Source: an uncultured bacterium (GTDB lineage: Bacteria > Patescibacteriota > Minisyncoccia > Phycocordibacterales > PALSA-1337). From it: 64,000 nt of DNA. Of the stretch, positions 2,100 through 45,293 are shown piece after piece (position 1 is the stretch's first letter; the number at the start of each line of letters is the position of its first letter). The DNA lies in the NCBI GenBank assembly GCA_963848635.1, contig CAWKEA010000005.1, positions 15,275 to 79,274 of the forward strand. The letters are read 5' to 3'. Under the pieces are notes generated by a model. It did not search any database, was not told where the DNA came from, and saw only the letters and a list, made by a program, of their open reading frames with translations. The translations under genes and the position numbers were made by a program.

Positions 2100-3500
2100 T
2101 TCAGATTCCACCAGTCGAGTTGTTCGACATGTACATTATATCAAGCCGAATATTTATTCGTCAAGATATTGAATAACCCCACCCATCTTTGCACTTTTCT
2201 GGTAATTGATTCACATAATACTCGGAAGAGGTCAGCACTTCAAGCGGCACCAATTTGTTCTTGAAAGCACAGTGCACTCTTTTGGTGTTGTAGAAGGTCA
2301 AATATTCCTTCAACTTTTCATTAAATTTGGTAGTGTCATCAAAGAGTATGTTGACATTGTAATCAACGAACTCTTCTTGGATGGTACCATTGAAGCTCTC
2401 ACAGTGAGCATTCATCTTGGGAGTCTTCGGATATGTGTGGTAGTGAGTGATGTTGTTCTTTGTAAGTAAGGCGTCAAGATGTAGCTTGAATTCTGATCCG
2501 TTGTCAGTCAGTACATTCTTGATTTCATACGGAAACATCTGCATGATCAGGTAGAAGAAATGAGCAAACGTCTTTGAAGAATGTGACTTGGTAGCGATTG
2601 CGTAGGTAGTGCGTGAATATATGTCGATTGCAGTTAAAATGTACATCCTACGACCATTTCTCTGTTTCTCAATGGTATCGAGTGCCAAAACGTGTCCGGG
2701 GTACGTTGGCACCAAGTCCTTGGGCTTTCTAAGCACTTTCTTGCGATTGGTTTTCTTGATCTTGCCAAAGTGTGACACTTTCTGCGGGAATGTCCGGAGG
2801 CCACCCATGTCAGTGATTAGTCTTTCAATAGTTGATGGTTTTGGACACTTCTCAATTCCAAAAGCATCACAGAAGTCCAGAAGCAACGGGTATAGCTTTT
2901 CTGCGCCGAGGTTTGGATGATCGACCCGTAACTTCCGAAGCTCCTCAAGTATGCGGAAATCCCAAGTTCTTTTTCTCTTCTTTTGAGGTGTTCTTTTGCC
3001 AGGATTCAAGGCTTCGACTTTGCCATTGCCTTCATCCAATTTCTTCTTCCAATTGAACAAAGTCCGTCTGGAAACCTTGAATGCGTCCATGGCTGAATCG
3101 AGCCCATACTTACCCCAATGTATTAATATTTTGTACCTTTCCTGCGCTTGTTTGGTGATCATATGATGATACCTTACCGCGTAGTTCAAGACTGTGACAA
3201 ATCCTTTAATTCCCCTGCGTTTTGATTGTATTCTCATGTTGCGCCCATGTAATTAATGAGTGCAATATGTATCTGAGGTTAGTCAGATATAATCCATTTA
3301 GTGGACCTGGAGAGATTTGCACTCTCGGGCAAGCGGATAATAAGCCGTTGCCACAACTCTGTCATGCCCACAGTGATGATTTTTCATCACTGAACACAAT
3401 TATAAAGACTAGACTATTAAGAAAAGTTAAATTTTCCTAAAGATTTCTTAATAAAAAAGGTGCACCCAAGCATCGTTTCCTGAAACGAGCATATACAGCG
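2100..3500 (-). mobile_element. IS481-like insertion sequence; boundaries approximate
   Basis: AT-rich block, visibly lower GC than the flanks, containing a single transposase ORF. I could not find terminal inverted repeats by eye, so the ends are uncertain. Confidence 0.5.
2161..3237 (-). CDS. DDE transposase, IS481/IS3-superfamily (rve integrase core)
   Basis: N-terminal HTH-like region and a DDE core with DNGSEF and a downstream CESFNGT motif; this is the IS3/IS481 rve signature. 358 aa. Confidence 0.85.
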   Translation of the reverse strand: MRIQSKRRGIKGFVTVLNYAVRYHHMITKQAQERYKILIHWGKYGLDSAMDAFKVSRRTLFNWKKKLDEGNGKVEALNPGKRTPQKKRKRTWDFRILEELRKLRVDHPNLGAEKLYPLLLDFCDAFGIEKCPKPSTIERLITDMGGLRTFPQKVSHFGKIKKTNRKKVLRKPKDLVPTYPGHVLALDTIEKQRNGRRMYILTAIDIYSRTTYAIATKSHSSKTFAHFFYLIMQMFPYEIKNVLTDNGSEFKLHLDALLTKNNITHYHTYPKTPKMNAHCESFNGTIQEEFVDYNVNILFDDTTKFNEKLKEYLTFYNTKRVHCAFKNKLVPLEVLTSSEYYVNQLPEKCKDGWGYSIS

Positions 3501-7797: not shown

Positions 7798-8499
7798 TCA
7801 ACAAGCGGCTTGCGGCCTCATTGCTGCGAACACATCAAACAATTGCTGGGGACGTGCTGGTTCGGATTTGGTTTTCAGCGATCGCGAAAGAACAGGTACG
7901 ACTTTTTCAGGCTTGGCTCCATCAAGGAATTTGCGAGCTTCCGTCCTCTTATCGAGGATTTGATGGCCCATTGACCGTCTCTCAACACTCGTGATGGCCA
8001 TTCGCGACACGATATGTCTTGCGCGGTCATAAAACTTGCCGGAAGCGCCCACCCAAACGAATTGACCGCTGTGTTGTCTATCGAATTTCATGGCCAAGCC
8101 GTAGATTGCGTTCCTCTCGTCGTCTTTGCGATCGACGAGGACAAGCCGTGCCCCAGGGCACGCTTCGAGCAGGATAGACATGTGCTCATCGTTTTCGGGG
8201 AAGCCACAGATAACCAGATGCCGAAGAGGCGGTTGGCCAGTGGGGACGTCTTGCAAAGCATTGATGAACCCCGCTGTAAGAAACGCTGACCGTGCTATCT
8301 GCTGGTCGGTTGATCCTTCCGTCTCATCGTAAATTTCAGCAGTGGGCGGAACAGAGCTACCAAGGTTCACAAACCGAAATCCGCTGAGATAGACTGCTGA
8401 TCGGCGCAAGCCTTCGAGGAGGATGCTTTTGCCGCAATTTTCCGGTCCAACGAGTGCCGTGATCCCGATTTGGCCGCATCCTGTCTTGCATATTTCCAT
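7798..8499 (-). CDS. hypothetical P-loop NTPase
   Basis: Walker A-like LVGPENCGKS and a later hydrophobic-D/E stretch (LVLVDRKDDE). No confident family assignment. It is divergent from pilB. Confidence 0.45.
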   Translation of the reverse strand: MEICKTGCGQIGITALVGPENCGKSILLEGLRRSAVYLSGFRFVNLGSSVPPTAEIYDETEGSTDQQIARSAFLTAGFINALQDVPTGQPPLRHLVICGFPENDEHMSILLEACPGARLVLVDRKDDERNAIYGLAMKFDRQHSGQFVWVGASGKFYDRARHIVSRMAITSVERRSMGHQILDKRTEARKFLDGAKPEKVVPVLSRSLKTKSEPARPQQLFDVFAAMRPQAAC

Positions 8500-8722: not shown

Positions 8723-9853
8723 ATGACAATTCTCTATAATTTCAGCATGCAGTTGACCATACAGCCCGATGGAAAGGCATTTGAGGCACTCGATGCGATC
8801 ATCGAATATGCCGTCGTTCACGGCGCTTCTGATGTCCATATCGATCCTGAAAAGGATGCTCTTGCCGTGCGCATGAGGATCGACGGCGTCTTGATACATT
8901 GCGCCACGGTCTCTTTGTCGTTCCACCAGGAACTGATCGCACGGATCAAGGTTCTGGCAAGATTGAGGCCTGACATACATCTGCTCGCCCAGGATGGCCG
9001 GTTTTCATATTCAAAAGAATCGTTTGGCGCTGTCGTCGATATGCGAGTTTCGATCATTCCGACTCATTTCGGCGAAAACGCGGTCATAAGGGTCTTGGCA
9101 GGCGGTAAAAATACGACAAGGCTCTCGTCTCTCGGCTTTTCACCTGACAACGAATCTACCATCCGTGAAGCGCTGACTCGCACTCAAGGCATGATACTCG
9201 TCACTGGACCGACCGGCAGTGGCAAAACGTCGACAATGTATGCCATGCTCCGAGAGCTTGTTTCTGAACAGCTATCCATCGTCACTCTCGAAGATCCGAT
9301 CGAGTATGCCATTCCCGGCATCCGGCAGATAGCTGTCGACCACCGCTATGGGATCAATTTTTCCAACGGTTTGCGCTCGCTCGTGCGCCAAGATCCAGAT
9401 GTCATAATGGTCGGCGAGATCCGCGACAAAGAGACGGCGCAGATAGCCACAAACATCGCTCTAACCGGCCACCTAATTATTTCAACGCTTCATACTGCCA
9501 ATGCTCTCGGCTCTGTAGTTCGTTTGGCGGATCTTGGCATTGATCCATATCTTATCGCGCACACTCTCTCTATCGTCATCGCTCAGCGCCTTATCCGCAC
9601 GCTGTGTATGACCTGCGACGGCATTGGGTGTCCCAGCTGCTTCCAAAAAGGCTACCGCGGCAGAACGGTGATAGCCGAAGTGCTTGAGATCGACGACGAG
9701 ATGCGCGCTTATATCTCGATAAAGATGCCCTTGGCTGAAATTGCCCGCCATGCTCGCGTCAAGGGCATGGTCACCATGCGCGATCATGCCGCGGAAAAAA
9801 TCGATTGGGGAGCGACAACCCTTGAAGAAGTCAAACGAGTATTGGATCTGTAA
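8723..9853 (+). CDS. pilB: type IV pilus / type II secretion assembly ATPase (PilB/GspE family, short form)
   Basis: Walker A GPTGSGKTST, Asp box, His box (TLHTANA) and a C-terminal tetracysteine CMTCDGIGCPSC. Confidence 0.85.
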   Translation: MTILYNFSMQLTIQPDGKAFEALDAIIEYAVVHGASDVHIDPEKDALAVRMRIDGVLIHCATVSLSFHQELIARIKVLARLRPDIHLLAQDGRFSYSKESFGAVVDMRVSIIPTHFGENAVIRVLAGGKNTTRLSSLGFSPDNESTIREALTRTQGMILVTGPTGSGKTSTMYAMLRELVSEQLSIVTLEDPIEYAIPGIRQIAVDHRYGINFSNGLRSLVRQDPDVIMVGEIRDKETAQIATNIALTGHLIISTLHTANALGSVVRLADLGIDPYLIAHTLSIVIAQRLIRTLCMTCDGIGCPSCFQKGYRGRTVIAEVLEIDDEMRAYISIKMPLAEIARHARVKGMVTMRDHAAEKIDWGATTLEEVKRVLDL

Positions 9854-9863
9854 GATATCGGGC

Positions 9864-10994
9864 ATGCAGAGCGCTCGTCATGATTATTACCGATCGATGA
9901 CGCGCGCAAATTGCACTATGTTAAAAAATCTCATCAAAAAAATAAAATGTCCCAGACTCTCCATGAAGGAACAAGCGCTTTTTGCCGATCGGCTTGCTCT
10001 CCTCCTCGGCGTATCGATGTCATTGCCAGAATCAATAGCGGCATTGCGGCATACTTTTGGCGCGCGGCGAGAATTATCTTTGATTGACCTTCAGCATCGC
10101 CTTACCGACGGCTCGAGCTTTGAATCAGCCCTCCATGCTTCTCGTCTTGGCTTTTCCCGCATGATCATCCTGGCCGCACGAATCGGTGAACGGAGTGGCA
10201 CCCTTTCTGATTCGCTTCATGCGGCCGCCGGACGGATCGAGCGCGGCCGTGGCGTCAAAAGCGCCTTGATCTCGACGCTGACATACCCAATCATCATTTT
10301 TATTGTCTCATCTGCCGTCATTGCTTTTCTTGTCTTCTTCATAATGCCGAGGATTATGCCGACCATCCAAAGCCTTCATGTGCCGTTGCCGGCTGTCACT
10401 GTATTTTTCATATCGATATCGCATTTTCTCGCCAGCGAATGGTGGAAAATCGCTCTAGAAGCCATTTTGGCCGCGTATCTTATTTTTTTCTTTTACAAGA
10501 AATCTGTCTCATCCAGGAATTTTATCCAGAGATGCATCTTATGGATCCCGATCGTCTCAAAGGCCATCCGTGCCCACACGCTCTCTGAAATATTCGATAC
10601 GATTTCGACGCTTGTTTCAGCAGGCTGTCCTTTCATTGAAGCCGCGGCTGAAACTGGTCATTCCATCAGCCTTATCCCGTACCAAAAGGCCTTGTCGGAT
10701 GCCGTCGCTCATATGCAAAGCGGATCTGGATTTTCATCCATGCTGAGGCGTCGTGCACGCCTATTTCCTTCTCTTGCAGTCGATAGCATCGCTATCGGTG
10801 AACAGACAGGGAACATGGAGATCGTCTTGCCGCAGATAAGCGATCACTATAGCCGCGAGTTGCAGTCTGCGTTGGCTGGTTTTTCAAGGCTGATCGAGCC
10901 CGCCCTCATGATCGCCGTCGGAATCATCGTCGGCGCCGCGGCCTTATCGATCGTCCTGCCAATATATGAGATTTCACAGCATCTGTCTGGATAA
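9864..10994 (+). CDS. pilC: type IV pilus platform protein (PilC/GspF family)
   Basis: Two GspF-like repeats with three TM segments, directly downstream of pilB. The start is taken at the ATG at 9864, just after the pilB stop. Confidence 0.8.
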   Translation: MQSARHDYYRSMTRANCTMLKNLIKKIKCPRLSMKEQALFADRLALLLGVSMSLPESIAALRHTFGARRELSLIDLQHRLTDGSSFESALHASRLGFSRMIILAARIGERSGTLSDSLHAAAGRIERGRGVKSALISTLTYPIIIFIVSSAVIAFLVFFIMPRIMPTIQSLHVPLPAVTVFFISISHFLASEWWKIALEAILAAYLIFFFYKKSVSSRNFIQRCILWIPIVSKAIRAHTLSEIFDTISTLVSAGCPFIEAAAETGHSISLIPYQKALSDAVAHMQSGSGFSSMLRRRARLFPSLAVDSIAIGEQTGNMEIVLPQISDHYSRELQSALAGFSRLIEPALMIAVGIIVGAAALSIVLPIYEISQHLSG

Positions 10995-10999
10995 CAGCA

Positions 11000-12334
11000 A
11001 TGTCGAAATATGCACCATTATCAGGTTTTCTTGTTCTAGAAGCGATGATCGCGCTCGCCTTGTTTTCTATATGCGTCAGTTCGACGATAGTCCTGTCATG
11101 GAGCTCGCACAGGATGTTCGATGAGGCATATGAAAGACAGGCGCTTCTAAGCTCGCTCTCGTCAGTGATAGCAGACCCATCACGCATTGATCCTGAATCT
11201 GTTCGTTACACATACGGAAACGACGCGACAATCACGACGATCTCTTCTTCTACAGATCAGATCGCTGTCGGAAGCACCTCCATCTCATTTTCCATCCTCG
11301 AGCCTGACACTTTTTCCGCATACGGCAAAGACACATGTCCGCCCACCCTCGATTTTTTGAACCAGATATCATTGCCGATAACTGTTCCTCTTCCGATATC
11401 GCCAGCAAATCTCATCACAGGCTTGTCCGTAAAAGACGGTTTTGCCTATATATCGACTAACTCAAAAAACGCCACTGACCCTGATCTATTCATCATCGAT
11501 GTACGCGACCTGGAGAGCCCAAAGATCGTCTCGTCATTGGACACCGGTCCAGGTCTCAATGCTCTTGCTGTCGCCGGACCATATGTATTCGGGGCAAATG
11601 AGAGTTCGACTGACCAGCTCCAGGTCATTGATATCCATGATCGTTCTCACCCTATGCTCGTGGCTCAGGCAAAAGTGCCGCTCGATATCTCTTCGTCCTC
11701 CGCGCCCTATGGCTCAGCTGTCTTCTATGACAAAGGCTTCATCTACCTCGGCACCGAGAAAGGCGACAGCCCAGAATTCACGATATGGAACGTCGCCGAT
11801 CCTATCCATCCGACCCTGGCAGGCAGATATGAGATAGGGAACAAGGTCGAAAAAATAGCCGTCCAAGGCACCCGCGCATATGTTGGTGGTACGGGTTCCA
11901 ATCAGCTCATTTTTTTCGATATTTCCAACCCGACGAATCCTTCGCTCGTCGACATTGCGGCGTTGCCGGGCTTTCAGACCCAGAGCGCCGAGGCGCTCGA
12001 CGTGTTCGAAGGTGATACAGCGCTCGGCCGCGACACAGGCGGCTTCGACAATAAGGCTAATCCAGAGTTCATCCTCTTTGATACGAATATGATGGAAAAA
12101 AGCTCATTCGATGAACCCGGCGGTATCTACGGCATCATCGCACGACCGCCATATTTTATCGTCTTGACTCGCCGCTCATCAGATCAATTGCGCTTTGACA
12201 GCGAAAATGGCACGACCAGCGACGCGTACGACATTCCCGGTTCTCCTGTCGCATTATCGTGCGATTGGGGAAACATATATATTGCATCGAACAACCAACC
12301 GACTATCTCTTTGATCAAAGATCTCCATGATTAA
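11000..12334 (+). CDS. prepilin-like protein with a large beta-propeller-like (LVIVD-type repeat) domain
   Basis: N-terminus LSG/FLVLEAMIALALF is a class III (type IV prepilin) signal with Gly at -1 and Glu at +5, followed by a hydrophobic helix. The C-terminal 400 aa contain repeated ..AV.G.YV.G.....L.V.D.. blocks reminiscent of LVIVD propeller repeats. Confidence 0.55.
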   Translation: MSKYAPLSGFLVLEAMIALALFSICVSSTIVLSWSSHRMFDEAYERQALLSSLSSVIADPSRIDPESVRYTYGNDATITTISSSTDQIAVGSTSISFSILEPDTFSAYGKDTCPPTLDFLNQISLPITVPLPISPANLITGLSVKDGFAYISTNSKNATDPDLFIIDVRDLESPKIVSSLDTGPGLNALAVAGPYVFGANESSTDQLQVIDIHDRSHPMLVAQAKVPLDISSSSAPYGSAVFYDKGFIYLGTEKGDSPEFTIWNVADPIHPTLAGRYEIGNKVEKIAVQGTRAYVGGTGSNQLIFFDISNPTNPSLVDIAALPGFQTQSAEALDVFEGDTALGRDTGGFDNKANPEFILFDTNMMEKSSFDEPGGIYGIIARPPYFIVLTRRSSDQLRFDSENGTTSDAYDIPGSPVALSCDWGNIYIASNNQPTISLIKDLHD

Positions 12335-12341
12335 AATCCAC

Positions 12342-12530
12342 ATGAACATAAACAGGCGACAAAAATATGTCTGGACATCTGACAGTTCAGGGTTCACCTT
12401 GGTCGAGGTGATCGTCTATATAGCGATCTTCAGCATGATAGCTGTCACCTTGATTTCGCTTGCATATATTTCGTCCGTGGAAGACCACAAAACGATCCAA
12501 GCTGTGATAAATGCGTATGAAAATATTTGA
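12342..12530 (+). CDS. small type IV pilin / pseudopilin
   Basis: DSSG/FTLVEVIVYIAIFSMI is a textbook prepilin cleavage motif (G, F+1, E+5) followed by the N-terminal helix. Confidence 0.55.
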   Translation: MNINRRQKYVWTSDSSGFTLVEVIVYIAIFSMIAVTLISLAYISSVEDHKTIQAVINAYENI

Positions 12531-12927
12531 TTGGAACACACAAAAAAATAAGACCCGGCAAACTCATATTCGAGGCTTCATGGCCGTCATCCTGGTCATA
12601 TCTTTCATGCTTGTGACAATGCTTGCTTCTCTCGGCGCTTTTGCTGTGGCAGAAAGCTATGATGACTCTGTGTCGCGCCGCGAACATAGGATGAGGGCTG
12701 GGATCGATGCGAGTTCGTGCGTCTCAGTTGCCCTGCTGGCCTTCGCCCATGATTATTTCTATACAGCAAAGAATCAAGCCGTGACTTATTTTTCCTGCAG
12801 TATAGTCTCCGCCGTCAGAAGCGGATCGGTGATATCGATTGCCGCCTCAGGCTATGATGGCGGCATCACTGAATCGATTTCAGCTAGAGCAGAAGATAAC
12901 GGCAGGTCCATCACTACGGACGAATAA
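12511..12927 (+). CDS. putative minor pilin-like protein
   Basis: IRG/FMAVILVISFMLV resembles a degenerate prepilin N-terminus with no Glu at +5. It is the last gene of the pilus cluster. Confidence 0.35.
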   Translation: MRMKIFDWNTQKNKTRQTHIRGFMAVILVISFMLVTMLASLGAFAVAESYDDSVSRREHRMRAGIDASSCVSVALLAFAHDYFYTAKNQAVTYFSCSIVSAVRSGSVISIAASGYDGGITESISARAEDNGRSITTDE

Positions 12928-15052: not shown

Positions 15053-15904
15053 CTATTTTATCGCAATACCATATGCCGGCGCTTCCTCCGCGTATAGCTC
15101 TTTGACTGTTCCCATGCTGATATATTGGTTGTATATGCGGACTTGGTCTATCGAACCAGTGAAATTCTCTCCTGTGCCGTCAGATCTTTGGCCAATGTAG
15201 CCAGCATAGGTGTTATTAGTTGAAATGCCAAAGCTCGATGGCGATGTGTAGGCGTTTGGAACTATTTTTCCATTCACATAGAATGTACCGGCATCGGTCG
15301 CTCCGTTTTTTGTATAGACTATCTGGGTCCATGTGTTGACAGGCACATAACCGCCCCCTGTACAAGCAACGTACACACCAGGCTTGTATACCTCGATGCT
15401 TCCGTATGCATAGCAACTGACGGAAGACGAGTTGATTCCAAAGGTAAATTCTCTGCTTATATTTTGGATCGAAAAGATAGTTTGGCGGTCGTATGCTGGA
15501 TCAGTGGTCTTTACCCATGCCGAGATAGTGAATACATCGCTATTTTGTCCAATAGTATTGAGTGAATTAGGTACGTTAATAATCGCGTACCCATTTACTC
15601 CGTTGAATGCAAGCGCGCTTCCTGAGACACCCGGCGTCCATGTCGCTCCTGACGCAGATAACACTGCGTTGTTATTGTTCCCTGATGTGTCATATGCTGT
15701 CGTGCCGCTATTTTCATCAAAATTCCACAGAGCTACCGCATTGGCGCCAAGAGAATGGTAGACAGCAGTATCAAACTCCAGAGAGGCGGCAGTCATTCCT
15801 TTTGTCCGCGCGTTACTGAGTGCCGCGAGAATAATGCTCGACAAAAGACCTATTATTGAGATGACGACGAGAAGCTCGATGAGGGTAAAGCCGCGCGATT
15901 TCAT
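15053..15904 (-). CDS. type IV pilin with C-terminal LamG/concanavalin-like lectin domain
   Basis: N-terminus MKSRG/FTLIELLVVISIIGLLSSIILAAL is a canonical prepilin. The C-terminal 250 aa are rich in G/T/S beta-strand sequence with the LamG-like pattern (WNFDENSG.., TISAWVKT). Confidence 0.7.
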   Translation of the reverse strand: MKSRGFTLIELLVVISIIGLLSSIILAALSNARTKGMTAASLEFDTAVYHSLGANAVALWNFDENSGTTAYDTSGNNNNAVLSASGATWTPGVSGSALAFNGVNGYAIINVPNSLNTIGQNSDVFTISAWVKTTDPAYDRQTIFSIQNISREFTFGINSSSVSCYAYGSIEVYKPGVYVACTGGGYVPVNTWTQIVYTKNGATDAGTFYVNGKIVPNAYTSPSSFGISTNNTYAGYIGQRSDGTGENFTGSIDQVRIYNQYISMGTVKELYAEEAPAYGIAIK

Positions 15905-15911
15905 AGTTTTT

Positions 15912-16919
15912 TTATAGTTCTTTCGGTCTATAATCAACCGGTGCTTTCTTTAGCCAATCTTCCAGCTCTTGGCGAGATAGAAGGCCTTCTTGGGCGCCGA
16001 TATATTGCACGACCGAAGCAGAATTAATGGGAGCCCAGGCAAGAGCCTCGAGCGACGTTTTTCCGAGAGCGAGCGCGGCGACGAAAGTTGAAGAAAATGC
16101 GTCTCCCGCACCAGTGCGCTCATAAGGCGGTTTCGGATCGGGGTAGAGCGGCATGAGATATAACTTGCCCTGGTCGAAAAGATATGCACCATTTGGTCCA
16201 TCGGTGAGAAGCACTATTTTGGGACCGAGAGCCGCAAGCCGCTCGCACAGGTTTTTTATGTCACGACTGCCTTCTGACGCGCCGAGTATCCTCTGTGCCT
16301 CCTCGACATTCACTGCAAAGACCTCCGTACGCGCATAGATCCTTTTTAATTTTTCTATGCCAAGCTCCATCTGAAACGTTCCGGGCTGAAAAGCGAGCTT
16401 GACATCGCTATTTCTTTCAAGATACTTCGCGATTTCGTCATGAAAGGGTGCAGAGGATACCCCCATCGATGACAGATAGAGCCATTTCGGCGCGGAAAAT
16501 TTCGGCAGAGAATAATCGAAATCTTCATGTTTGACAAGGATCGTCCGTTCGGCTCCATACCAAAGGACGTAATGGTAGTTGGTTTTTTTGCCTTTTTGCT
16601 CGGCTATAAAATCCGTCGAGACTTCGTTCGATCGAAGGGTGCGCTCGCATTCCTTGCCGCGTTCGTCTTTGCCGACGTTCGTCACAAGCGCCGCCGGAAG
16701 CCCGAGCCGAGCCGCCGCCACAGCGGCATTTGCCGCGTTGCCGACGCCTGCGATGACTGTATCGAATTCAAATGGGATCTTGTCGCCGAATTTCATGCAT
16801 ATCTCGCAGTCCTTGTCGTCAAGCCTGCAATTGACGTGAGCATCTTTTAATTTGACGAACGCGTCGATGACGACATCGCCTATAGCGATAAAATCGCTTT
16901 TTTTCTTGAAAATAGACAT
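15912..16919 (-). CDS. PfkB-family carbohydrate/nucleoside kinase
   Basis: N-terminal GDVVID and a C-terminal GAGDAF anion-hole motif typical of ribokinase-like kinases. Confidence 0.8.
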   Translation of the reverse strand: MSIFKKKSDFIAIGDVVIDAFVKLKDAHVNCRLDDKDCEICMKFGDKIPFEFDTVIAGVGNAANAAVAAARLGLPAALVTNVGKDERGKECERTLRSNEVSTDFIAEQKGKKTNYHYVLWYGAERTILVKHEDFDYSLPKFSAPKWLYLSSMGVSSAPFHDEIAKYLERNSDVKLAFQPGTFQMELGIEKLKRIYARTEVFAVNVEEAQRILGASEGSRDIKNLCERLAALGPKIVLLTDGPNGAYLFDQGKLYLMPLYPDPKPPYERTGAGDAFSSTFVAALALGKTSLEALAWAPINSASVVQYIGAQEGLLSRQELEDWLKKAPVDYRPKEL

Positions 16920-24271: not shown

Positions 24272-27200
24272 ATGAAAACGATCGACCCTATTCTTGGTTT
24301 TGACAGAATTAATCTTATCGGAACTAAAAAAGCACGGTGGAGTACGATCGCACTATTCACGTTCATGTTTTTGGTGGGAGGTTTTCTTTTTGATATCAAT
24401 GGGGCCCAAGCGGCCACGAGTATATATTATTCAGTTGGTTCCAGCAATACTACCGATTACAAGACTGGCTCTCCCACAATTTCCATCGATGGAAGTGGCA
24501 ATGCAACATTTTCAGTCGCCCAGACAAATAATTCGATGGGTGTCGGCGATGTTATCAATTATAACGGCCAACAAGCCTATGTCACAGCCAAGACATCGAC
24601 CTCTATTTGGACAGTCGAAACTGCCATTGGCGCTTTGCCTCCGGCAACATCACCCGTACCTGTAACATCGATTACGCATGTTTTTAGTACTCTCAAAAGC
24701 GCACTGGGCGATGGGATTGCAGGCAATGTCACATCATCAAATTTCCTCAATACCTCCGACCTCGTAGCTAACAACTATGTCCTTAACGTTTCGCTTTATA
24801 ATGACACAGGAACACCAGAGACTGGAGATGGTAATATGACAATTGGAGGTTTTACGACGAGCGCCATCAACCATATATACATATACACTCCAACATCGAC
24901 AACCACCCAAGTGAACGCTAGCCAGCGACATAAAGGTGTATTTAATACTGCGATTGGCTATGCGCTTCAGGTCCCGGTCAATGCATATATTCTGACTATC
25001 ACCAATCCATATGTGACGATCGATGGCGTTCAAATAAATAATACCAACGGTCGCGGGTCGCTTTCATTGAACAACAATACTACTCTATCCAATGACATCA
25101 TTTTGGGTTCTGGGGATTATACACTCATATATGCCAGAGTGAATGACGTCGTGATGTATAATAATGTGATACAAGGCCCCAATACTATCGCCATTGATGC
25201 GGAGACAGCAGGTCAAACTGACTGGATATACAACAACACTTTTTATAACGTAGGCACAGCTATAGCGCTCAGCAATTGCAGTTTTGGTACGCAAATCAAA
25301 TTGATAAACAATATTTTTGCGTCAACAACTGCTCCCATGTCAGGTGCAGGCACCTGTGCGGCAGCGGGTTCAGATTATAACTCTACCGACGCAAGCTCAT
25401 TGGATTATTCTGTGACAGGAGGAGGCAATGTTCATGACCGCGTCAATCAGACATTTAATTTTTATGATCTTGCGAATAGCGATTTCGATCTGACGATATC
25501 AGATACAGGCGCCCTTGACCTCGGTACATCATCGCCATCGAATGATCCGGTGGTTCCATTTTCAACAGATATCTTAGGCACCAATCGTCCACAAGGGCCT
25601 GCATGGGATATCGGCGCGTTCGAGTACTTGCCATCGACATATGCAACCACTCCACCAGGTCTTTCCGGCGGTTCACCGGGTGGACAAATAGCCTACGGCA
25701 CAGCATCCCTTACTGTTTCCGTTAACACTAATGAGAATGCCACTTGCAAGTATGATGTTGTGGCTGGCACAGCGTACGCGTCTATGCCATACACATTCAC
25801 CAGTACCGGCGGAACGACTCACAGTTCAGCAATTTCTGGTCTACAAAATGGTCACGTATACAACTATTATGTCCGATGCCAAGACGCTTCTGGCAACACT
25901 AACATCAATGATTATGTGATTTCGTTCGAAGTGAATCAGGGCGTCGACGGTATCGTCTATGCTACGAGCTGTTCAAAGGAGGATACTAACTATGCCATGT
26001 CATTCGTCAATGCCGGCGACACGCTCAAGATCCCTGCGGGTGTTTGCGGCGGATACTCGTCATCCTTTGGTTTGGGGATATACAAAGCCATAACAGTTCA
26101 AGGAGCTGGAGAAGGGCAAACCATCATTGAAATAGCCTCGACTACGTCTGGAACATATTTTAATGGTGCCATCATACCTATTTATGCAGCTGCTACTGTC
26201 AGAGATTTGACCATCGAGACTGATACTTCTGGAAATAGCGGAACAGCCTTTACCGTAAATGCCAGCGGTTTTCGTATCACCAATGTCCAATATATTGACC
26301 AGACTCCCGCAGACACTGGTTATTTCGTCGGAGTCAGATCGGGCGTATATGGTCTTATCGATCACGATAGCGTAACTGGTGGAGCGGGTAACGATGAGCT
26401 TATTGTCGTCTACGGCCCTACAGACTCTTGGCAGACGCCGAATACCATGGGTAAATCTGAAGCACTTTATATCGAGGACTCTACGTTCAACAATAGCGGA
26501 TATGTTACTGATTGCAACTCAAATAGCCGATGTGTGGTTCGCCATAATGTCATCACTGGGCCTATAAAAGTAGACGGTCACGGCAAGGCAAGCGATACGC
26601 CTCCACGTGGCGTGAGACAATACGAGACATATGACAATACATGGACAAGCAGTGCGACCGCGTGGGCCGCAATAGAGATGCGAGGCGGTACGGGTATTAT
26701 ATTTGGTAATAAAGTGACGAATCAATCGCCTGGTGCAAATGCAGGATGGTTCTTTCTCACTGATTATGCGTACGGCGCGGCATGGCCAAACTTTGGTAGC
26801 GTATATCAATGTCTTAATAATTATCCCGTAGATGATCAGATCGGTGTCGGCGAAGACGCCAAGGTAGCCGCTAGCGAGCCATACTATATCTGGGGCAATA
26901 CTTTTGGTGGTTCTGCCTGGACGAGATCATTCAAGGCGATTCCTCCCACAAGTGTCAGCGGTTGTTCGGTGACGTTCACTGAAAGTCAAGTTATACAGTC
27001 TAACCGTGATTTTTACGCTGATGCAGGTTTTGATACGAATACTGGTTTGACCAGCGGTCCATTCTCATCTATTCCTTCGACGTGTACGATAGGATTTGGT
27101 TACTGGGCTACCGATCGAGGAGGGGACTGGGATGCATCTATTGGGACATCGAGCGCATCGAACGATGGCAGTCTGTATAAATGCACATCTACTAATACAT

Positions 27201-29425
27201 GGACTGATTCATATACGCCCTATGCATATCCGGATTACCTTACTGCTACTTCGACCACAGGAACTGGCCTTGTCGATATAGGAGCAGGGGCAAGAATGTT
27301 CGGCAATGGCATGTTTTATGGCCTCGCGACGTCGTCTGCATCAGGCGTATTTGCGAATATAGCAGTTTTACCAGCCATCAGCACTCCAGATGTCTGGGTT
27401 GATCTGTCGATATCGGCTTGGAATAAAACCGGTACAAGAGAAAAAACATGGACAGAAAGCTCTTGGAGCATGGGAACTACATCATCAAACCACACAATCG
27501 GGGATCTTGCCAGTAATACTGCGTACAAGATCACAATAGATGGCATGATTGCTTCAACCACCACAGCCGGTCCTGATTGCATTTCAGGCATCTGTACCTC
27601 GGATTCCTCTGGAAAGATATATTTCAACTATTCGGGAGGATATTCAACGCATACATTTGACGTATCGCCTTATGTTAACGGATCAATCACACTGTCCACA
27701 CTCCTTACCCCCGCTTTCTCTAGTATCACCGTTACAAGCGTCACAGCCTCAAGCACTATCACTGCAGGTGGCGGAGCTTCATCGACTGTAGAAGGTTTTA
27801 ACTACGGGACTACAAGCGCATATGGCCTAACTGCTTCCACAACAGGCACTTTCGGCATCGGTAATTTCACTCAAAATATAACAGGATTAGCGTGTAATAC
27901 TCCATATCATGTCCAGGCATTTTCCATTAATTCTGCGGGGGTTGGCATCTCATCTGATGCGACGTTCACTACGAGCGCGTGTGCAGTCACTTATACTCTT
28001 TCGTACACAGCAGGCAGTAATGGAACGCTCTCAGGCTCATCGACTCAGGTCGTACCGGGAAACGCAAACGGTACAGCTGTTACTGCACTACCGAACTCAG
28101 GATACTACTTTGTTAATTGGTCAGATGGTTCAACAACAAATCCTCGCAGTGATAGCAACGTCATTGCCAATGTGGCAGTCACGGCCAATTTTTCCTTGAT
28201 AGCGACCGTTCCGGTTCTTTCAACCCTCGCCGCGAGCGGCGTTTCCGCATCGAACGCCACTCTGAACGCGCATATTCTATCGACAGGCGGAGCTAACGCA
28301 ACGCAGTCTGGATTCGCATATGGCACAGTATCAGATCTTTCAACAGTAATCGCTACGACAACCCTAGGAGCTCAAATAGGTCCCGCAACCTTCAACCAAA
28401 CCTTTACCGACCTCACTCCTAACCTCACCTATTATTTCCGCGCATACGCAGTGAACTCTGCGGGAACGACGATGGGCTCAATCCTTTCCTTTATCACAAA
28501 CAACAATTCAGTATATGCCGACGTGGGAGGCACTGTCACCGGCCTTGCAGGCACTCTCGTGCTCCAAGACAACTCTACTGACAATCTTTCGCTTACTTCG
28601 AATGGATCGTTTAGCTTTGCCACTCCTCTTGTCAATAATTCCTCGTATAGCGCCACTGTTCTCACTCAACCATCTGGACAAACATGCTCCGTATCAAACG
28701 GATCCGGAACAGTCTCGGGGATCGCTGTGACAGGGATCACTGTTGTCTGTGCAGATAATCAGGTTACTAATCCAATTGTATATTCAAATGGCGGTGGCGG
28801 TGGGGGTGGCGGTGGCGGCGGAAGCGTCTCTCCAACAGTCCTTTTGCCGATTCTTGCTACAAGTTCCACCGCAAAGACATATATCGATTCGTTTATCACT
28901 CCGACTTATGCCGGTGCAATAGGGAATAATGTCCGATCCCTCCAGAAATTCCTTATCGCACAGGGATTGCTTGATCCTTTTGACGTAACAGGATTCTTCG
29001 GGCCATTGACCAAGGCCGCCGTTATCAAGTTCCAGATTAAAAATAGAATTATCGCTTCCGCTTTAAGTCCCGGCGCTGGGGCAGTGGGACCGAGGACTAT
29101 TGCGGCGATCAATTCGCTCATTTCGAGCACTGCTCTTGTTGCAACGACGACACCGCCTCAAGCCAGCGTTTCTTCCATAAGATTAATATTCAACGCAAAT
29201 CTGTCCTTGGGTTCAATCGGAGCAGAAGTTAAAGCACTCCAGGAATACCTCAATGCTAAAGGCTACAATGTCGCTTATACAGGGGTTGGTTCGCCAGGAA
29301 AGGAAACTACCGAGTTTGGATATGCGACACGAGCAGCGCTCATCAGATTCCAGAATGCGCACGGAATTTCTGCCTCAGGAGATTTTGGACCGATAACAAG
29401 AGCGTATATAAAAAATTTCGGATAA
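24272..29425 (+). CDS. giant cell-surface protein (1717 aa): N-terminal TM/signal, right-handed beta-helix-like region, Fn3/Ig-like repeats, poly-Gly linker, two C-terminal peptidoglycan-binding repeats
   Basis: N-terminal hydrophobic segment; NxxN/NN-rich beta-helix-like repeats (NNTFYNVGTAIALSNC, IINNIFAS); several 90-100 aa T/S-rich Ig-like modules; an 11-residue Gly run at about 28790-28825; two PG_binding_1-like repeats at the C-terminus (..LQKFLIAQGLL....GFFGPLTKAAVIKFQ and ..LQEYLNAKGY....FGYATRAALIRFQ). Confidence 0.8.
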   Translation: MKTIDPILGFDRINLIGTKKARWSTIALFTFMFLVGGFLFDINGAQAATSIYYSVGSSNTTDYKTGSPTISIDGSGNATFSVAQTNNSMGVGDVINYNGQQAYVTAKTSTSIWTVETAIGALPPATSPVPVTSITHVFSTLKSALGDGIAGNVTSSNFLNTSDLVANNYVLNVSLYNDTGTPETGDGNMTIGGFTTSAINHIYIYTPTSTTTQVNASQRHKGVFNTAIGYALQVPVNAYILTITNPYVTIDGVQINNTNGRGSLSLNNNTTLSNDIILGSGDYTLIYARVNDVVMYNNVIQGPNTIAIDAETAGQTDWIYNNTFYNVGTAIALSNCSFGTQIKLINNIFASTTAPMSGAGTCAAAGSDYNSTDASSLDYSVTGGGNVHDRVNQTFNFYDLANSDFDLTISDTGALDLGTSSPSNDPVVPFSTDILGTNRPQGPAWDIGAFEYLPSTYATTPPGLSGGSPGGQIAYGTASLTVSVNTNENATCKYDVVAGTAYASMPYTFTSTGGTTHSSAISGLQNGHVYNYYVRCQDASGNTNINDYVISFEVNQGVDGIVYATSCSKEDTNYAMSFVNAGDTLKIPAGVCGGYSSSFGLGIYKAITVQGAGEGQTIIEIASTTSGTYFNGAIIPIYAAATVRDLTIETDTSGNSGTAFTVNASGFRITNVQYIDQTPADTGYFVGVRSGVYGLIDHDSVTGGAGNDELIVVYGPTDSWQTPNTMGKSEALYIEDSTFNNSGYVTDCNSNSRCVVRHNVITGPIKVDGHGKASDTPPRGVRQYETYDNTWTSSATAWAAIEMRGGTGIIFGNKVTNQSPGANAGWFFLTDYAYGAAWPNFGSVYQCLNNYPVDDQIGVGEDAKVAASEPYYIWGNTFGGSAWTRSFKAIPPTSVSGCSVTFTESQVIQSNRDFYADAGFDTNTGLTSGPFSSIPSTCTIGFGYWATDRGGDWDASIGTSSASNDGSLYKCTSTNTWTDSYTPYAYPDYLTATSTTGTGLVDIGAGARMFGNGMFYGLATSSASGVFANIAVLPAISTPDVWVDLSISAWNKTGTREKTWTESSWSMGTTSSNHTIGDLASNTAYKITIDGMIASTTTAGPDCISGICTSDSSGKIYFNYSGGYSTHTFDVSPYVNGSITLSTLLTPAFSSITVTSVTASSTITAGGGASSTVEGFNYGTTSAYGLTASTTGTFGIGNFTQNITGLACNTPYHVQAFSINSAGVGISSDATFTTSACAVTYTLSYTAGSNGTLSGSSTQVVPGNANGTAVTALPNSGYYFVNWSDGSTTNPRSDSNVIANVAVTANFSLIATVPVLSTLAASGVSASNATLNAHILSTGGANATQSGFAYGTVSDLSTVIATTTLGAQIGPATFNQTFTDLTPNLTYYFRAYAVNSAGTTMGSILSFITNNNSVYADVGGTVTGLAGTLVLQDNSTDNLSLTSNGSFSFATPLVNNSSYSATVLTQPSGQTCSVSNGSGTVSGIAVTGITVVCADNQVTNPIVYSNGGGGGGGGGGGSVSPTVLLPILATSSTAKTYIDSFITPTYAGAIGNNVRSLQKFLIAQGLLDPFDVTGFFGPLTKAAVIKFQIKNRIIASALSPGAGAVGPRTIAAINSLISSTALVATTTPPQASVSSIRLIFNANLSLGSIGAEVKALQEYLNAKGYNVAYTGVGSPGKETTEFGYATRAALIRFQNAHGISASGDFGPITRAYIKNFG

Positions 29426-29608: not shown

Positions 29609-29692
29609 TGCCCGGGGTGGGAATCGAACCCACAACTCCTTACGGAGATAACATTTTAAGTGTTACGTGTCTACCAGTTTCACCACCCGGGC
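29609..29692 (-). tRNA. tRNA-Leu(TAA)
   Basis: Acceptor GCCCGGG/CCCGGGC, anticodon loop CTTAAAA, long variable arm, T-loop TTCGATT. Confidence 0.8.
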
Positions 29693-30011
29693 GCTTGTTT
29701 TTATTTTTACCACGATGTGTCGGCTTCAAGCTATGACAATGAGGACACAAAATCCTAAGATTTTCGATGCGATTGTCGTGTCTATCTCCATGTACATGGT
29801 CAAGTTCAAGTGGAATTCTACCATCTTGAGACTTTTTTGCCCAACCGCATTCTTCGCACATAGGCAATTTTATCTTTTCAATGAACAAACGCTTCTTGAG
29901 CTTGAAGCTTTGGAAATCGTTGTTTTCTATAAGAATGTTTGATAAGGGGACCTTCGTCATATATCGACCACGCAAACCCTTATTCCAAGCATATCCAGTA
30001 AAATGCGACAT
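29640..30011 (-). CDS. HNH endonuclease
   Basis: HNH motif LELDHVHGDRHDNRIENLRILCPHCH. The last 17 codons and the stop overlap the 5' half of tRNA-Leu(TAA). The start is trimmed to an internal Met so that it does not overlap tRNA-Cys. Confidence 0.55.
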   Translation of the reverse strand: MSHFTGYAWNKGLRGRYMTKVPLSNILIENNDFQSFKLKKRLFIEKIKLPMCEECGWAKKSQDGRIPLELDHVHGDRHDNRIENLRILCPHCHSLKPTHRGKNKNKRPGGETGRHVTLKMLSP

Positions 30012-30035
30012 ATCAGGATTGTATTCAGTATTAAA

Positions 30036-30109
30036 TGGAGGCCACGGCGAGAATCGAACTCGCGATAACGCTTTTGCAGAGCGTCGAATTACCACTTTTC
30101 TACGTGGCC
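30036..30109 (-). tRNA. tRNA-Cys(GCA), CCA encoded
   Basis: Acceptor GGCCACG/CGTGGCC, discriminator U73 (characteristic of tRNA-Cys), anticodon loop CTGCAAA, T-loop TTCGATT, 3' CCA present. Confidence 0.8.
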
Positions 30110-35085: not shown

Positions 35086-38313
<3,228 letters not shown>

Positions 38314-42204: not shown

Positions 42205-42852
42205 ATGAACACTCCCTTTGAAGAAAAAATGGCAACTCGGCTAGAGTCGATGACGTCGCATCTTGAATCGATCACTCGATCGATCGGTAAACTTGCCACA
42301 AAAGACGAACTAAACATCGCAGTTTCCAAGCTATCAACAAAGGACGAGCTGAGTATCGCAGTTTCCAAGCTATCAACAAAGGACGAGCTGAGTATCGCTG
42401 TTTCAAAACTTGCAACAAAAGATGAACTAGATACAGCTGTTTCTAAACTTGCAACAAAAGATGAACTGAGTATCGCTGTTTCTAAACTTGCAACAAAAGA
42501 TGAATTAGATACAGCTGTTTCCAAGCTATCAACAAAGGACGAGCTGACCATCGCTGTTTCCAATCTTGCAACGAAGGATGAGATGACGGATACCATTAAT
42601 GATGCAGTCGACAGTTTAGCCGGAGCCGTAAAGAAAGGCTTCGATGAAGTCCATGAAAAATTCACAGAAATTGACGAGAGGTTCACAAAAGTAGACGAGA
42701 GGTTCGATTCTTTGGAGAGAAAAGTCGATCGTATGAACGATAGCTTCACCAACCAGCTCGATTACTTCCAGCTCTACTATCCGACACGAAAAGAGTTCGT
42801 GGATCTTGATTCTAGAATGACGAGAGCCGAGAGAAAATTAAAAATACGGTAG
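42205..42852 (+). CDS. hypothetical protein with nine tandem 11-residue repeats (LATKDELSIAVSK-type) and a C-terminal coiled coil
   Basis: The translation shows (K)L(A/S)TKDEL(S/D/N/T)(I/T)AVS repeated nine times with period 11, followed by ERFTKVDERFDSLERKVDRM heptads. Confidence 0.6.
   Translation: MNTPFEEKMATRLESMTSHLESITRSIGKLATKDELNIAVSKLSTKDELSIAVSKLSTKDELSIAVSKLATKDELDTAVSKLATKDELSIAVSKLATKDELDTAVSKLSTKDELTIAVSNLATKDEMTDTINDAVDSLAGAVKKGFDEVHEKFTEIDERFTKVDERFDSLERKVDRMNDSFTNQLDYFQLYYPTRKEFVDLDSRMTRAERKLKIR
42287..42583 (+). repeat. 33-bp tandem repeat, about 9 copies in two alternating sequence variants, coding
   Basis: Units such as gtttccaagctatcaacaaaggacgagctgagtatcgca and gtttctaaacttgcaacaaaagatgaactagatacagct alternate head to tail. 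Confidence 0.85.
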
Positions 42853-42860
42853 ATATTGAT

Positions 42861-44276: not shown

Positions 44277-44372
44277 TGAATTATTATATCAGTCGAAAGT
44301 GCCGAGTCAAAAGTCAATGCAAGAATTTCTGACGTAATGGGCTTTTGGCTAAGTACTCGGGACTTTCGACTT

Positions 44373-45293
44373 TTACAGCCATTTCTTCTTTCTAAAATAC
44401 CATACCATGAACAATCCCAAGATGACCATGATGCCGCAGATTATCCAAAAATCGTTTGGTTGGCCGACGATCGGCGTATGGACGGTATTCATCGAAAAAA
44501 GCTCGGCGAACAAAGACAGTGGAAACGTCACGAAAGCCACCACAGTCAGTATCTTCATCGTCTCATTCTGTTTTGTGTTGAGAAGGGAATCATTGGTCTC
44601 TCTCAGCTCCTTTGCCAACTCATGGCCGTTGACCACAGCATCGCGAACCATAGAAAAGTTCTCTTTTATGTCGGACACATAGGGCCCGAATGTCTGGTCA
44701 AAGAAACCTCTCTTGGCTTTATCGAGGGATTCCAGCGTCTCGAAATGAGCGCGGCATGTCTGGCGGAAGTCGAGCAGTTCCCGTGATAGACCCGAAATGA
44801 CCTCGACCATCTCTTTTTCCTCGCCGGCGAATATACTATCCTCTGCGGCCGACAATTCCGCGTTCACTGATTCGATATTGTGGCGCATGTGGTGATACAT
44901 CCGCAGGGTTATGTAGTAGAAGAGATGTCCAGCATGGTCCTCGATCTTTTCTTTTTCCAGAATCGAATTCGTCTCGATGGCCTTGGCGAAATTTTCGAGT
45001 GATTCGATGGCTTTGTAATGGGCAGTGACGACAAAGTCCTTGCCGATGACAAAATCGATCTCATGGTTGATGACGACATGATGGCCATCGCGCTTTATGC
45101 GCACAGGGAACTGCAATATGAGATAAACGTAGTCCTGATAGATGACAGCTTTTGAGGATTCTGAGGGGCCGAGAAGCTCACGTGCGACGAGATGATGCAG
45201 TTTATGGGACTCGGCCACCGACTGCACTTCTTCGGCAGTCGGATTTTGCAGGTCCGTCCAGGAGACTTGGCCATACGTGTATGTTTTGATCAT
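44373..45293 (-). CDS. CorA-family magnesium/cobalt transporter
   Basis: Two C-terminal TM helices with the SMN variant of the G-M-N signature (FSMNTVHTP) and a CorA-like cytoplasmic domain. The start is taken at an internal Met to avoid overlap with the divergent protease gene. Confidence 0.75.
   Translation of the reverse strand: MIKTYTYGQVSWTDLQNPTAEEVQSVAESHKLHHLVARELLGPSESSKAVIYQDYVYLILQFPVRIKRDGHHVVINHEIDFVIGKDFVVTAHYKAIESLENFAKAIETNSILEKEKIEDHAGHLFYYITLRMYHHMRHNIESVNAELSAAEDSIFAGEEKEMVEVISGLSRELLDFRQTCRAHFETLESLDKAKRGFFDQTFGPYVSDIKENFSMVRDAVVNGHELAKELRETNDSLLNTKQNETMKILTVVAFVTFPLSLFAELFSMNTVHTPIVGQPNDFWIICGIMVILGLFMVWYFRKKKWL

What the first reader, a model, noticed from the sequence alone, without database searches (positions are those of the whole stretch)
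8723..12927. Type IV pilus module with unusual modular pilins (beta-propeller-like fusion) downstream of PilB-PilC
PilB and PilC are followed by three genes with prepilin-type N-termini. The first (11000-12334) has the class III signal G/FLVLE fused to about 400 aa of repeated LVIVD-like propeller blocks. That is far larger than a structural pilin, so it is a candidate tip adhesin. The other two are a canonical 60-aa pilin and a degenerate pilin lacking Glu+5. A further pilin with a LamG/lectin-like head is encoded separately at 15053-15904. No prepilin peptidase or PilM/N/O/T genes are in the window. Pilin-adhesin fusions of this kind are how episymbiotic CPR bacteria are thought to attach to hosts or take up DNA. 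The propeller fusion may be an uncharacterised adhesin class.
Basis: partly seen in the sequence, partly recalled or inferred. Interest (0 to 1): 0.55.

Follow-up and report, generated by a model that had tools for sequence, protein, structure and literature searches.

The report
Pilus operon with propeller-tipped pilin
This is a compact type IV pilus operon from an ultra-small (Patescibacteria) bacterium in which one pilin carries a seven-bladed propeller, probably shown at the pilus tip to grip a target; the design is real and widely conserved, but this kind of pilin fusion is already catalogued.

Summary
Window 8723-12927 is one tight operon. It encodes a T2SSE assembly ATPase without an N-terminal domain, a T2SSF platform protein and three pilin-like proteins.

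- **Mini-pilin (67 aa):** the mature form is a 45-residue helix only.
- **LamG pilin (15053-15904, minus strand):** also real.

I analysed 62 related Patescibacteria loci. The ATPase and platform genes lie upstream of the propeller pilin in 56. The Glu5-less pilin lies downstream in 57.

The most likely reading is a GspH/I/J/K-like priming and tip complex of minor pilins that displays the propeller as a ligand-binding head. The ligand and the function were not tested. No pilD, pilT or pilMNO gene is in the window.

Pilin-LVIVD and pilin-LamG fusions are already catalogued (Raynaud 2021). A propeller-bearing minor pilin that aids host binding is known in Saccharibacteria (PilX2). This is a new member of a known kind, of moderate interest.

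The parts
8723..9853 (+). Assembly ATPase (PilB/GspE/ComGA class), 376 aa. It lacks the N-terminal N1/MshEN domain. It has Walker A (GPTGSGKT) and a compact CxxC-x4-CxxC motif.
   Evidence: Pfam T2SSE scores 356.9 bits over residues 21-372. NCBIfam alignments start at GspE profile position 113 and PilB position 185, whereas the ComGA profile is covered 2-266 of 267. All scores are below the equivalog cut-offs.
9861..10994 (+). Platform protein (PilC/GspF/ComGB class). The ORF opens at 9741 (TTG). Plausible starts are 9861, 9894 and 9963.
   Evidence: Pfam T2SSF, 132.6 bits in 2 stretches. GspF 212.9, PilC 161 and ComGB 110.8 bits, all below cut-off. An independent gene call gives 343 aa.
11000..12334 (+). 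Modular minor pilin, 444 aa. Leader is residues 1-9 (11000-11026), with cleavage predicted after Gly9. The pilin module is residues 10 to about 125: alpha-1 helix 12-58 plus three strands 68-102. The seven-bladed LVIVD beta-propeller is residues 127-439 (11378-12316).
12327..12530 (+). Mini-pilin, 67 aa. The mature form (FTLVE...INAYENI) is 45 residues, essentially the alpha-1 helix alone. It overlaps the upstream gene by 8 nt.
   Evidence: Pfam N_methyl 30.3 bits. Weak GspI, ComGE and ComGF matches. In the related loci the middle pilin is 100 aa or less in 28. Mature lengths are 44-54 aa with conserved C-terminal motifs. The same position holds a pilin of about 160 aa in 22 more distant loci.
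12511..12927 (+). Glu5-less minor pilin (GspK/GspI/S. sanguinis PilA-like cap or nucleator), 138 aa. The start may be 12517. It has two invariant cysteines (C70, C96).
15053..15904 (-). Separate modular pilin, 283 aa. It has a canonical major-pilin-like N-terminus (MKSRG|FTLIELLVVISIIGLL) and a Laminin_G_3 (concanavalin-like lectin) head.
   Evidence: Pfam N_methyl 32.3 bits plus Laminin_G_3 71.2 bits. Its N-terminus matches major pilins in the PDB. It is the only window sequence resembling the conserved pilin of about 150 aa found downstream of the operon in relatives, and only over about 60 N-terminal residues.

Best explanation
The region is a reduced version of a type IV filament operon that is conserved across Paceibacteria/Parcubacteria-type Patescibacteria. 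The fuller version in relatives runs: ATPase, platform, GspH/ComGD-like pilin, propeller pilin, pilin of about 160 aa, Glu5-less pilin, conserved pilin of about 150 aa.

Shown here:
- The ATPase and platform protein are of the assembly type.
- The three downstream proteins all have pilin N-terminal helices.
- The largest carries a seven-bladed LVIVD propeller behind a minimal pilin module.
- The last lacks Glu5 and has a GspK/GspI-like fold.

Inferred mechanism:
1. A prepilin peptidase encoded elsewhere cuts after the conserved glycine of each protein.
2. The Glu5-less pilin sits at the very top, because it cannot neutralise the N-terminus of a subunit above it.
3. The propeller pilin and the mini-pilin dock beneath it through their helices. 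Together they form a priming and tip complex on the platform protein. This resembles GspH/I/J/K in type II secretion and PilA/B/C in Streptococcus sanguinis.
4. The ATPase then drives polymerisation of a major pilin underneath. That pilin is not in this window; the LamG pilin is the only other pilin present.
5. The propeller is pushed outward and acts as the ligand-binding head of the filament, most likely for attachment to a host or partner cell surface.

No retraction ATPase accompanies the operon.
For: - Gene identities and tight packing. Independent gene calls agree.
- The class III motif is conserved: G9 and E14 in at least 90% of 37 homologues.
- Synteny in 62 Patescibacteria loci: ATPase and platform upstream in 56, Glu5-less pilin downstream in 57, all three in 52.
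- A strongly conserved pilin of about 150 aa lies within 1 kb downstream in 37 loci.
- Weak family hints place the flanking pilins of the fuller operon in ComGD/GspH, ComGF/ComGE and GspG/ComGC-like classes, in that order.
- Published precedents: the S. sanguinis PilA (no Glu5, GspI-like) plus modular PilB/PilC tip complex (PMC9934059); modular pilins predicted to sit at the tip (PMC8179133); and TM7x PilX2, a propeller-bearing minor pilin whose deletion roughly halves host binding (PMC11623550).
Against: - Nothing tests binding, tip location or complex formation. No multimer model could be run.
- Pfam N_methyl and TIGR02532 do not recognise the 444-aa N-terminus.
- A profile of the pilin modules reaches PDB pilins only at E 0.14-1.3.
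- No prepilin peptidase and no clear major pilin are in the window.
- The assignment of subunits to H/I/J/K positions rests on gene order and sub-threshold scores.
Confidence: 0.65

Rival explanations
1. It is a Com-type DNA-uptake pilus. The minimal gene set (ATPase without an N1 domain, platform, a few pilins, no PilMNO or PilT) builds a short competence pilus. The propeller, or the filament itself, captures DNA for nucleotide scavenging.
For: - The gene content resembles comGA-GG.
- The ComGA profile is covered end to end, 2-266 of 267, at 236 bits.
- Weak ComGD, ComGE and ComGF hits appear in the matching gene order.
Against: - ComGA (236 against 300) and ComGB (110.8 against 240) fall below the equivalog cut-offs, and GspE and PilB score higher.
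- The YncE match is no better than generic WD40 matches.
- In TM7x, mutants of the propeller-bearing system T4P-2 kept normal competence.
- No comEA, comEC or dprA gene lies beside the operon in the window or in three annotated relatives.
Confidence: 0.15
2. It is a short pseudopilus or surface-display device rather than a long pilus. The three minor pilins alone form a stub that holds the propeller just outside the membrane, with no dedicated major pilin. It would work as a type II secretion-like piston or as a fixed receptor.
For: - This window has only the three minor-pilin genes after the platform gene.
- GspE and GspF are the best-scoring NCBIfam models.
- The best fold match of the cap pilin is GspK.
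Against: - 37 of 62 relatives carry a highly conserved pilin of about 150 aa with a GspG/PilA-like N-terminus directly downstream. That looks like a major subunit.
- Patescibacteria lack an outer membrane and secretin (established knowledge), so classic type II secretion does not apply.
- The GspE and GspF cut-offs are not met.
Confidence: 0.12
3. The 444-aa protein is an ordinary membrane-anchored or Sec-exported surface propeller protein. Its N-terminus only resembles a prepilin signal by chance.
For: - Pfam N_methyl and TIGR02532 fail to hit it.
- LVIVD proteins without pilin N-termini exist in cyanobacteria, Bacteroidota and archaea.
Against: - Gly-1 and Glu+5 are conserved in at least 90% of homologues down to 23% identity.
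- The helix is 47 residues long and is followed by a small sheet, as in pilins.
- The gene sits between a platform gene and other pilin genes in more than 50 genomes.
Confidence: 0.04

Closest known systems
PilX2 of the thin T4P-2 pilus of Nanosynbacter lyticus TM7x (Saccharibacteria), Grossman et al. 2024, PMC11623550
   Same: [quoted passage not shown] It is proposed as the tip adhesin. Its deletion lowers host binding from about 10.6% to 4.6% of host cells.
   Different: - The PilX2 propeller is built of RCC1 repeats, and no PilD-type signal was predicted for it. Here the blades are LVIVD repeats and the G|F...E5 motif is canonical and conserved.
- The TM7x system has PilM2/N2/O2, and its pilins lie in a separate locus. 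Here the machinery is only an ATPase and a platform, and the pilins follow directly.
- No sequence comparison with PilX2 could be made.
PilA-PilB-PilC minor-pilin tip complex of Streptococcus sanguinis type IV pili, PMC9934059 and PMC8179133
   Same: - It is an operon of three minor pilins. One lacks Glu5, has a degenerate signal and a GspI-like fold. The others are modular pilins carrying a bulky adhesive module on a short pilin moiety.
- The complex is proposed to nucleate assembly and cap the filament.
- S. sanguinis PilC carries a concanavalin-like lectin module, as does the window's LamG pilin.
   Different: - The modules there are vWA and lectin, not a propeller.
- There is no helix-only subunit.
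- There is no detectable sequence similarity.
- The S. sanguinis system also has PilT and PilMNO-like parts, according to the literature. This was not checked here.
GspH/I/J/K (and ComGD/E/F/G) core minor pilin complex of type IV filaments
   Same: - The gene order is a run of minor pilins ending in a Glu5-less subunit.
- The upstream pilin in the fuller operons gives weak ComGD/GspH hits.
   Different: - The Glu5-less protein is 138 aa and lacks the alpha-domain insertion that makes GspK bulky.
- No Pfam or NCBIfam GspH/I/J/K or ComGD-GG model reaches its cut-off.
- One subunit is reduced to a bare helix, and another carries a propeller of about 310 residues.
PilY1/PilC tip adhesin of type IVa pili
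   Same: It has a seven-bladed beta-propeller presented at the pilus tip on a complex of minor pilins (as described).
   Different: - PilY1 is a large non-pilin protein that docks onto the minor pilins. Here the propeller is covalently fused to a pilin.
- No PilY1 family hit was found in Pfam.
Catalogued modular pilins IPR012902-IPR013211 (LVIVD) and IPR012902-PF13385 (LamG), Raynaud et al. 2021, Dataset S1
   Same: The domain architectures are the same. LamG is the commonest, with 229 proteins. LVIVD with 1 to 13 repeats accounts for about 30 proteins, including an 860-residue Falkowbacteria protein. IPR013211 is the LVIVD repeat.
   Different: - That catalogue is a list of InterPro architectures, with no operon context, structures or function.
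- Most members of the family described here would be missed by it, because N_methyl (IPR012902) does not hit their N-termini.

Membership tests
Type IV filament superfamily (T4F) | Assembly ATPase of the T2SSE (PilB/GspE) family | tested here: met
   Pfam PF00437, 356.9 bits against a cut-off of 24.9.
Type IV filament superfamily (T4F) | Polytopic platform protein of the T2SSF (PilC/GspF) family | tested here: met
   Pfam PF00482, 132.6 bits in two stretches.
Type IV filament superfamily (T4F) | Pilins with a class III signal: short basic leader, Gly-1, hydrophobic helix, Glu+5 | tested here: met
   N_methyl HMM is met for the 67-aa and LamG pilins. For the 444-aa protein the motif is met and conserved, but the HMM does not hit it.
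Type IV filament superfamily (T4F) | Dedicated prepilin peptidase (PilD/ComC, Peptidase_A24) | not testable with these tools
   None was found among the window ORFs scanned, nor within 8 kb either side in three relatives. The rest of the 515,952-bp contig could not be read.
Type IVa pilus | PilM/PilN/PilO alignment proteins and PilT retraction ATPase | tested here: not met
   There is no second T2SSE paralogue in the window or in the 6-kb flanks of the 62 related loci analysed. No PilM/N/O hits appear in the annotated flanks. These genes may lie elsewhere in the genome.
Com (competence) pilus | ComGA and ComGB equivalog scores | tested here: not met
   ComGA 236.3 bits against a cut-off of 300. 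ComGB 110.8 bits against 240.
Com (competence) pilus | Minimal machinery: ATPase without an N1 domain, no PilMNO or PilT, a run of minor pilins ending in a Glu5-less one | tested here: met
   The ATPase aligns from GspE profile position 113 and covers the ComGA profile 2-266 of 267. Gene content is shown.
Type II secretion system | GspE and GspF equivalog scores; secretin GspD and GspC/L/M | tested here: not met
   GspE 409.9 bits against 630.25. GspF 212.9 bits against 424. No such neighbouring genes are present.
Modular type IV pilin (sensu Raynaud et al. 2021) | N-terminal pilin module joined to an extra, independently folding domain | tested here: met
   AF2 model: helix 12-58 and strands 68-102, then a propeller at 127-439. 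Pfam LVIVD. The LamG pilin has N_methyl plus Laminin_G_3.
LVIVD repeat family (PF08309 / IPR013211) | Score above the Pfam gathering threshold | tested here: met
   47.7 bits against 20.2, with one stretch at 282-318. Five LVIVD-type strands are visible by eye.
GspK / PilX / ComGG class minor pilin | Pilin fold with no Glu5 | tested here: met
GspK / PilX / ComGG class minor pilin | Family HMM match and the GspK alpha-domain insertion | tested here: not met
   No Pfam or NCBIfam hit. At 138 aa there is no room for the insertion.
PilY1/PilC tip adhesin | Non-pilin protein with the PilC/PilY1 C-terminal propeller domain | tested here: not met
   No such Pfam hit. The protein has a pilin N-terminus.

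The most novel reading that the evidence does not exclude
The operon could define a Paceibacteria-wide type IV filament whose priming complex has been rebuilt. The small GspI-position pilin would have acquired a seven-bladed LVIVD propeller as the lineage's main partner-recognition head. In one large clade, including this genome, the neighbouring subunit would have shrunk to a 44-54-residue helix-only pilin with a conserved acidic tail. That would be the smallest known pilin with a type IVa-style G|FxxxE signal. If it polymerises, it might even build an ultrathin filament. On this reading the unannotated Glu5-less pilin family (3,334 cluster representatives) would be the universal cap of these filaments.
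Probability: 0.2. Interest if true: 0.6.

Novelty: new member of a known kind. Interest (0 to 1): 0.4.

Why it matters
How Paceibacteria and Parcubacteria recognise and hold on to their partners is almost unknown. Some of them parasitise methanogenic archaea, and very few are cultured.

A propeller-bearing pilin that is conserved with its own assembly ATPase, platform and cap pilin in at least 52 species-level genomes is a concrete candidate for the recognition device. It could be expressed and tested for ligands.

The work also gives a fold-based identity to a large unannotated protein family, the Glu5-less cap pilin (3,334 cluster representatives, with no Pfam or NCBIfam model). It shows too that a pilin can be pared down to a bare helix and still be conserved. 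Neither point changes the general picture of type IV filaments, in which minor pilins at the tip carry grafted binding modules.

Tried and rejected
- **PDB sequence searches:** none for the 444-aa protein. None for the 138-aa family profile. Only sub-threshold pilin hits for the profile of the pilin modules (E 0.14-1.3).
- **Genome scan:** the full 37-sequence alignment was too divergent. A closer 24-sequence alignment worked.
- **Operon boundaries:** promoter and terminator scans were no better than shuffles (8 against 6.4, and 9 against 4.4) and say nothing about boundaries.
- **Search for pilD and pilT:** attempts to read the parent 515,952-bp contig returned only short Logan contigs or nothing.
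- **Missing major pilin:** I looked in the window for an orthologue of the conserved 150-aa downstream pilin. Only the first 60 or so residues of the LamG pilin resemble it. I therefore do not claim that the LamG pilin is this operon's major subunit.
- **DNA-binding lead:** the YncE fold match was considered as a lead. I rejected it as non-specific, because dozens of WD40 proteins score the same.

Full report
**What is there**

Window 8723-12927 holds five + strand genes that abut or overlap.

- The 376-aa product is a T2SSE ATPase (Pfam 356.9 bits).
  - NCBIfam alignments begin at GspE profile position 113 and PilB position 185, so the N-terminal domain of those ATPases is missing.
  - The ComGA profile is covered end to end.
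  - All equivalog cut-offs are missed.
- The next ORF is a T2SSF platform protein (132.6 bits). Its start is uncertain: 9861, 9894 or 9963. An independent gene call on a Logan contig gives 343 aa.
- Three pilin-like genes follow. A six-frame scan finds only three proper G-F-x-x-x-E N-termini in the 64 kb: two of these genes plus the minus-strand gene at 15053-15937.
- The window has no second T2SSE or T2SSF paralogue.
- G+C content is even across the region, so it does not look like a recent insertion.

**The 444-aa protein**

- Its N-terminus MSKYAPLSG|FLVLE has a short basic leader, Gly-1, Phe+1 and Glu+5.
- Pfam N_methyl and TIGR02532 do not hit it. Only a weak ComGE match appears (E 0.0048).
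- A search of 5.8 billion proteins returned 65 relatives, about 50 of them full-length at 415-500 aa. All named ones come from Patescibacteria.
- In a 37-sequence alignment reaching 23% identity, G9 and E14 are at least 90% conserved.
- Pfam LVIVD scores 47.7 bits against a cut-off of 20.2.
- The AlphaFold2 model has pLDDT 87.6 and pTM 0.80. It shows a helix at 12-58, three strands at 68-102, then 28 strands forming seven four-stranded blades at 127-439.
- Five blades end in an LVIVD-type strand followed by a D-x-x-x-P loop.
- C113 and C421 are invariant in the closer set. They may tie the pilin module to the last blade. That is inference only.
- There is no PDB relative by sequence.

**The two small proteins**

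The 67-aa ORF has N_methyl (30.3 bits).
- Its mature product is 45 residues, essentially alpha-1 alone.
- In the related loci the middle pilin is 100 aa or less in 28.
- In these small pilins the mature part is 44-54 residues, with a conserved C-terminal INAYE or DYELLIxNFHE motif. It is therefore a real, selected gene.
- In 22 more distant loci the same position holds an ordinary pilin of about 160 aa.

The 138-aa protein has no family hit.
- A profile search found 115 relatives.
- An exhaustive search found 3,334 cluster representatives at E<=1e-3 and 1,393 at E<=1e-10.
- The family N-terminus is G-[FY]-[IV]-A-[LI]-T, never with Glu5. Two cysteines are invariant.
- Its model (pLDDT 89.3) is a long helix on a 4-5-stranded sheet.

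**Conservation of the operon**

- Three relatives with precomputed annotation show the same order. Housekeeping genes flank the operon, and no peptidase A24, PilT or PilMNO lies within 8 kb.
- A scan of one genome per GTDB species gave 67 loci.
- Of the 62 Patescibacteria loci analysed, the ATPase and platform lie upstream of the propeller pilin in 56, the Glu5-less pilin lies downstream in 57, and all three are present in 52.
- 17 loci carry an extra pilin of about 150 aa before the propeller pilin.
- 37 loci carry a very conserved pilin of about 150 aa within 1 kb downstream.
- In the fuller operons the first pilin gives weak ComGD/GspH hits, the third gives weak ComGF/ComGE hits, and the last gives GspG/ComGC/PilA-type hits. 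All are below cut-off.
- The order thus parallels H-I-J-K or GD-GE-GF-GG, with the propeller on the second subunit.
- The window's clade has lost the first pilin and shrunk the third.
- The conserved downstream pilin is absent from the window. Only the first 60 or so residues of the LamG pilin resemble it.

**The LamG pilin**

The gene at 15053-15904 (minus strand) carries N_methyl plus Laminin_G_3 (71.2 bits). Its N-terminus is of the major-pilin type. It lies among housekeeping genes: tgt on one side and a PfkB kinase on the other.

**Most likely mechanism**

- By analogy with GspH/I/J/K and with S. sanguinis PilA/B/C, the three proteins most likely form a priming and tip complex after processing by a peptidase encoded elsewhere.
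- The Glu5-less subunit would sit on top, and the propeller would be exposed as a binding head.
- A major pilin would polymerise beneath them, driven by the ATPase.
- The shown steps are gene identities, folds, motif conservation and synteny.
- The inferred steps are processing, complex formation, tip location and ligand binding.
- Rival readings are a Com-type DNA-uptake pilus, a short pseudopilus, or a non-pilin surface protein. They are less well supported, for the reasons given under each.

**Comparison with what is known**

- Raynaud et al. 2021 listed 1,219 modular pilins in InterPro.
  - IPR012902-PF13385 (LamG) is the commonest architecture, with 229 proteins.
  - About 30 proteins combine IPR012902 with one to thirteen IPR013211 repeats.
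  - IPR013211 is the LVIVD repeat.
- Grossman et al. 2024 showed that TM7x PilX2, a minor pilin with a heptabladed RCC1 propeller, is needed for normal host binding by the thin T4P-2 pili.
- Paceibacteria attached to methanogens carry pilBCDMT clusters with many pilins. A PilD encoded elsewhere in this genome is therefore plausible.
- In the held literature I found no description of this particular operon, the mini-pilin or the Glu5-less family.

**Verdict**

The finding is real and correctly read. It is a new member of a known kind, the modular minor pilin at a type IV filament tip. The operon-wide conservation, the helix-only pilin and the large unannotated cap-pilin family are modest additions. 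Interest is 0.4.

Noticed in passing
window 35086-38313 (about 37735 and 37918): rpoB is read in three frames. RpoB-like text leaves the main frame after ...PLGVPSRMN and returns at ...[12 protein letters not shown] about 185 nt later. That means two compensating single-base indels. Assembly errors are the most likely cause, and they would warn of other indels in the window. The pilus genes match an independent Logan contig exactly.
   Followed up: partly
window 7798-8499 (-): A 233-aa protein with a P-loop (GPENCGKS) and no Pfam or NCBIfam family is transcribed divergently from the pilus ATPase. It sits in the same position in L004 and L005, at 31-34% identity. It may be a conserved accessory or regulator of the operon in this clade.
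   Followed up: partly
related loci, e.g. L011 7941-8429, L015 7941-8441, L041 6575-7033, L005 12238-12747: A very conserved pilin of about 150 aa (GFTLIEILVVIGIIAVLAAVVLVAINPARQFKLARDSQR...ISVTR, with two Cys) lies within 1 kb downstream of the operon in 37 of 62 loci. It is the probable major pilin. It is missing from this window.
   Followed up: partly
window 12511-12927 and proteins P0066-P0329: The Glu5-less pilin belongs to a family with 3,334 cluster representatives at E<=1e-3 and 1,393 at E<=1e-10. It has no Pfam or NCBIfam model.
   Followed up: yes
window 24272-29425 (+): A 1,717-aa predicted surface protein with two C-terminal PG_binding_1 stretches, a Flg_new_2 (InlB B-repeat-like) domain and an fn3 trace. 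It could be another cell-surface or host-interaction protein.
   Followed up: no
window 42205-47203 versus L001 9880-13530: The block of a repeat-rich coiled-coil protein (STKDELSIAVSKL repeats), cysS, an S41 peptidase and ribosomal protein L9 lies directly after the pilus operon in L001. In the window it lies 30 kb away, which indicates a rearrangement between relatives.
   Followed up: no
window 2161-3237 (-) and 29640-30095 (-): An rve-family integrase or transposase with an HTH_32 domain, and a stand-alone HNH endonuclease. These are mobile-element traces in an otherwise housekeeping region.
   Followed up: no
L004 4860-6702: In this relative the pilus ATPase gene is split into three T2SSE-matching ORFs. 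A 245-aa ORF of no known family lies between it and the platform gene. The ATPase may be a pseudogene, or the split may reflect assembly errors.
   Followed up: no
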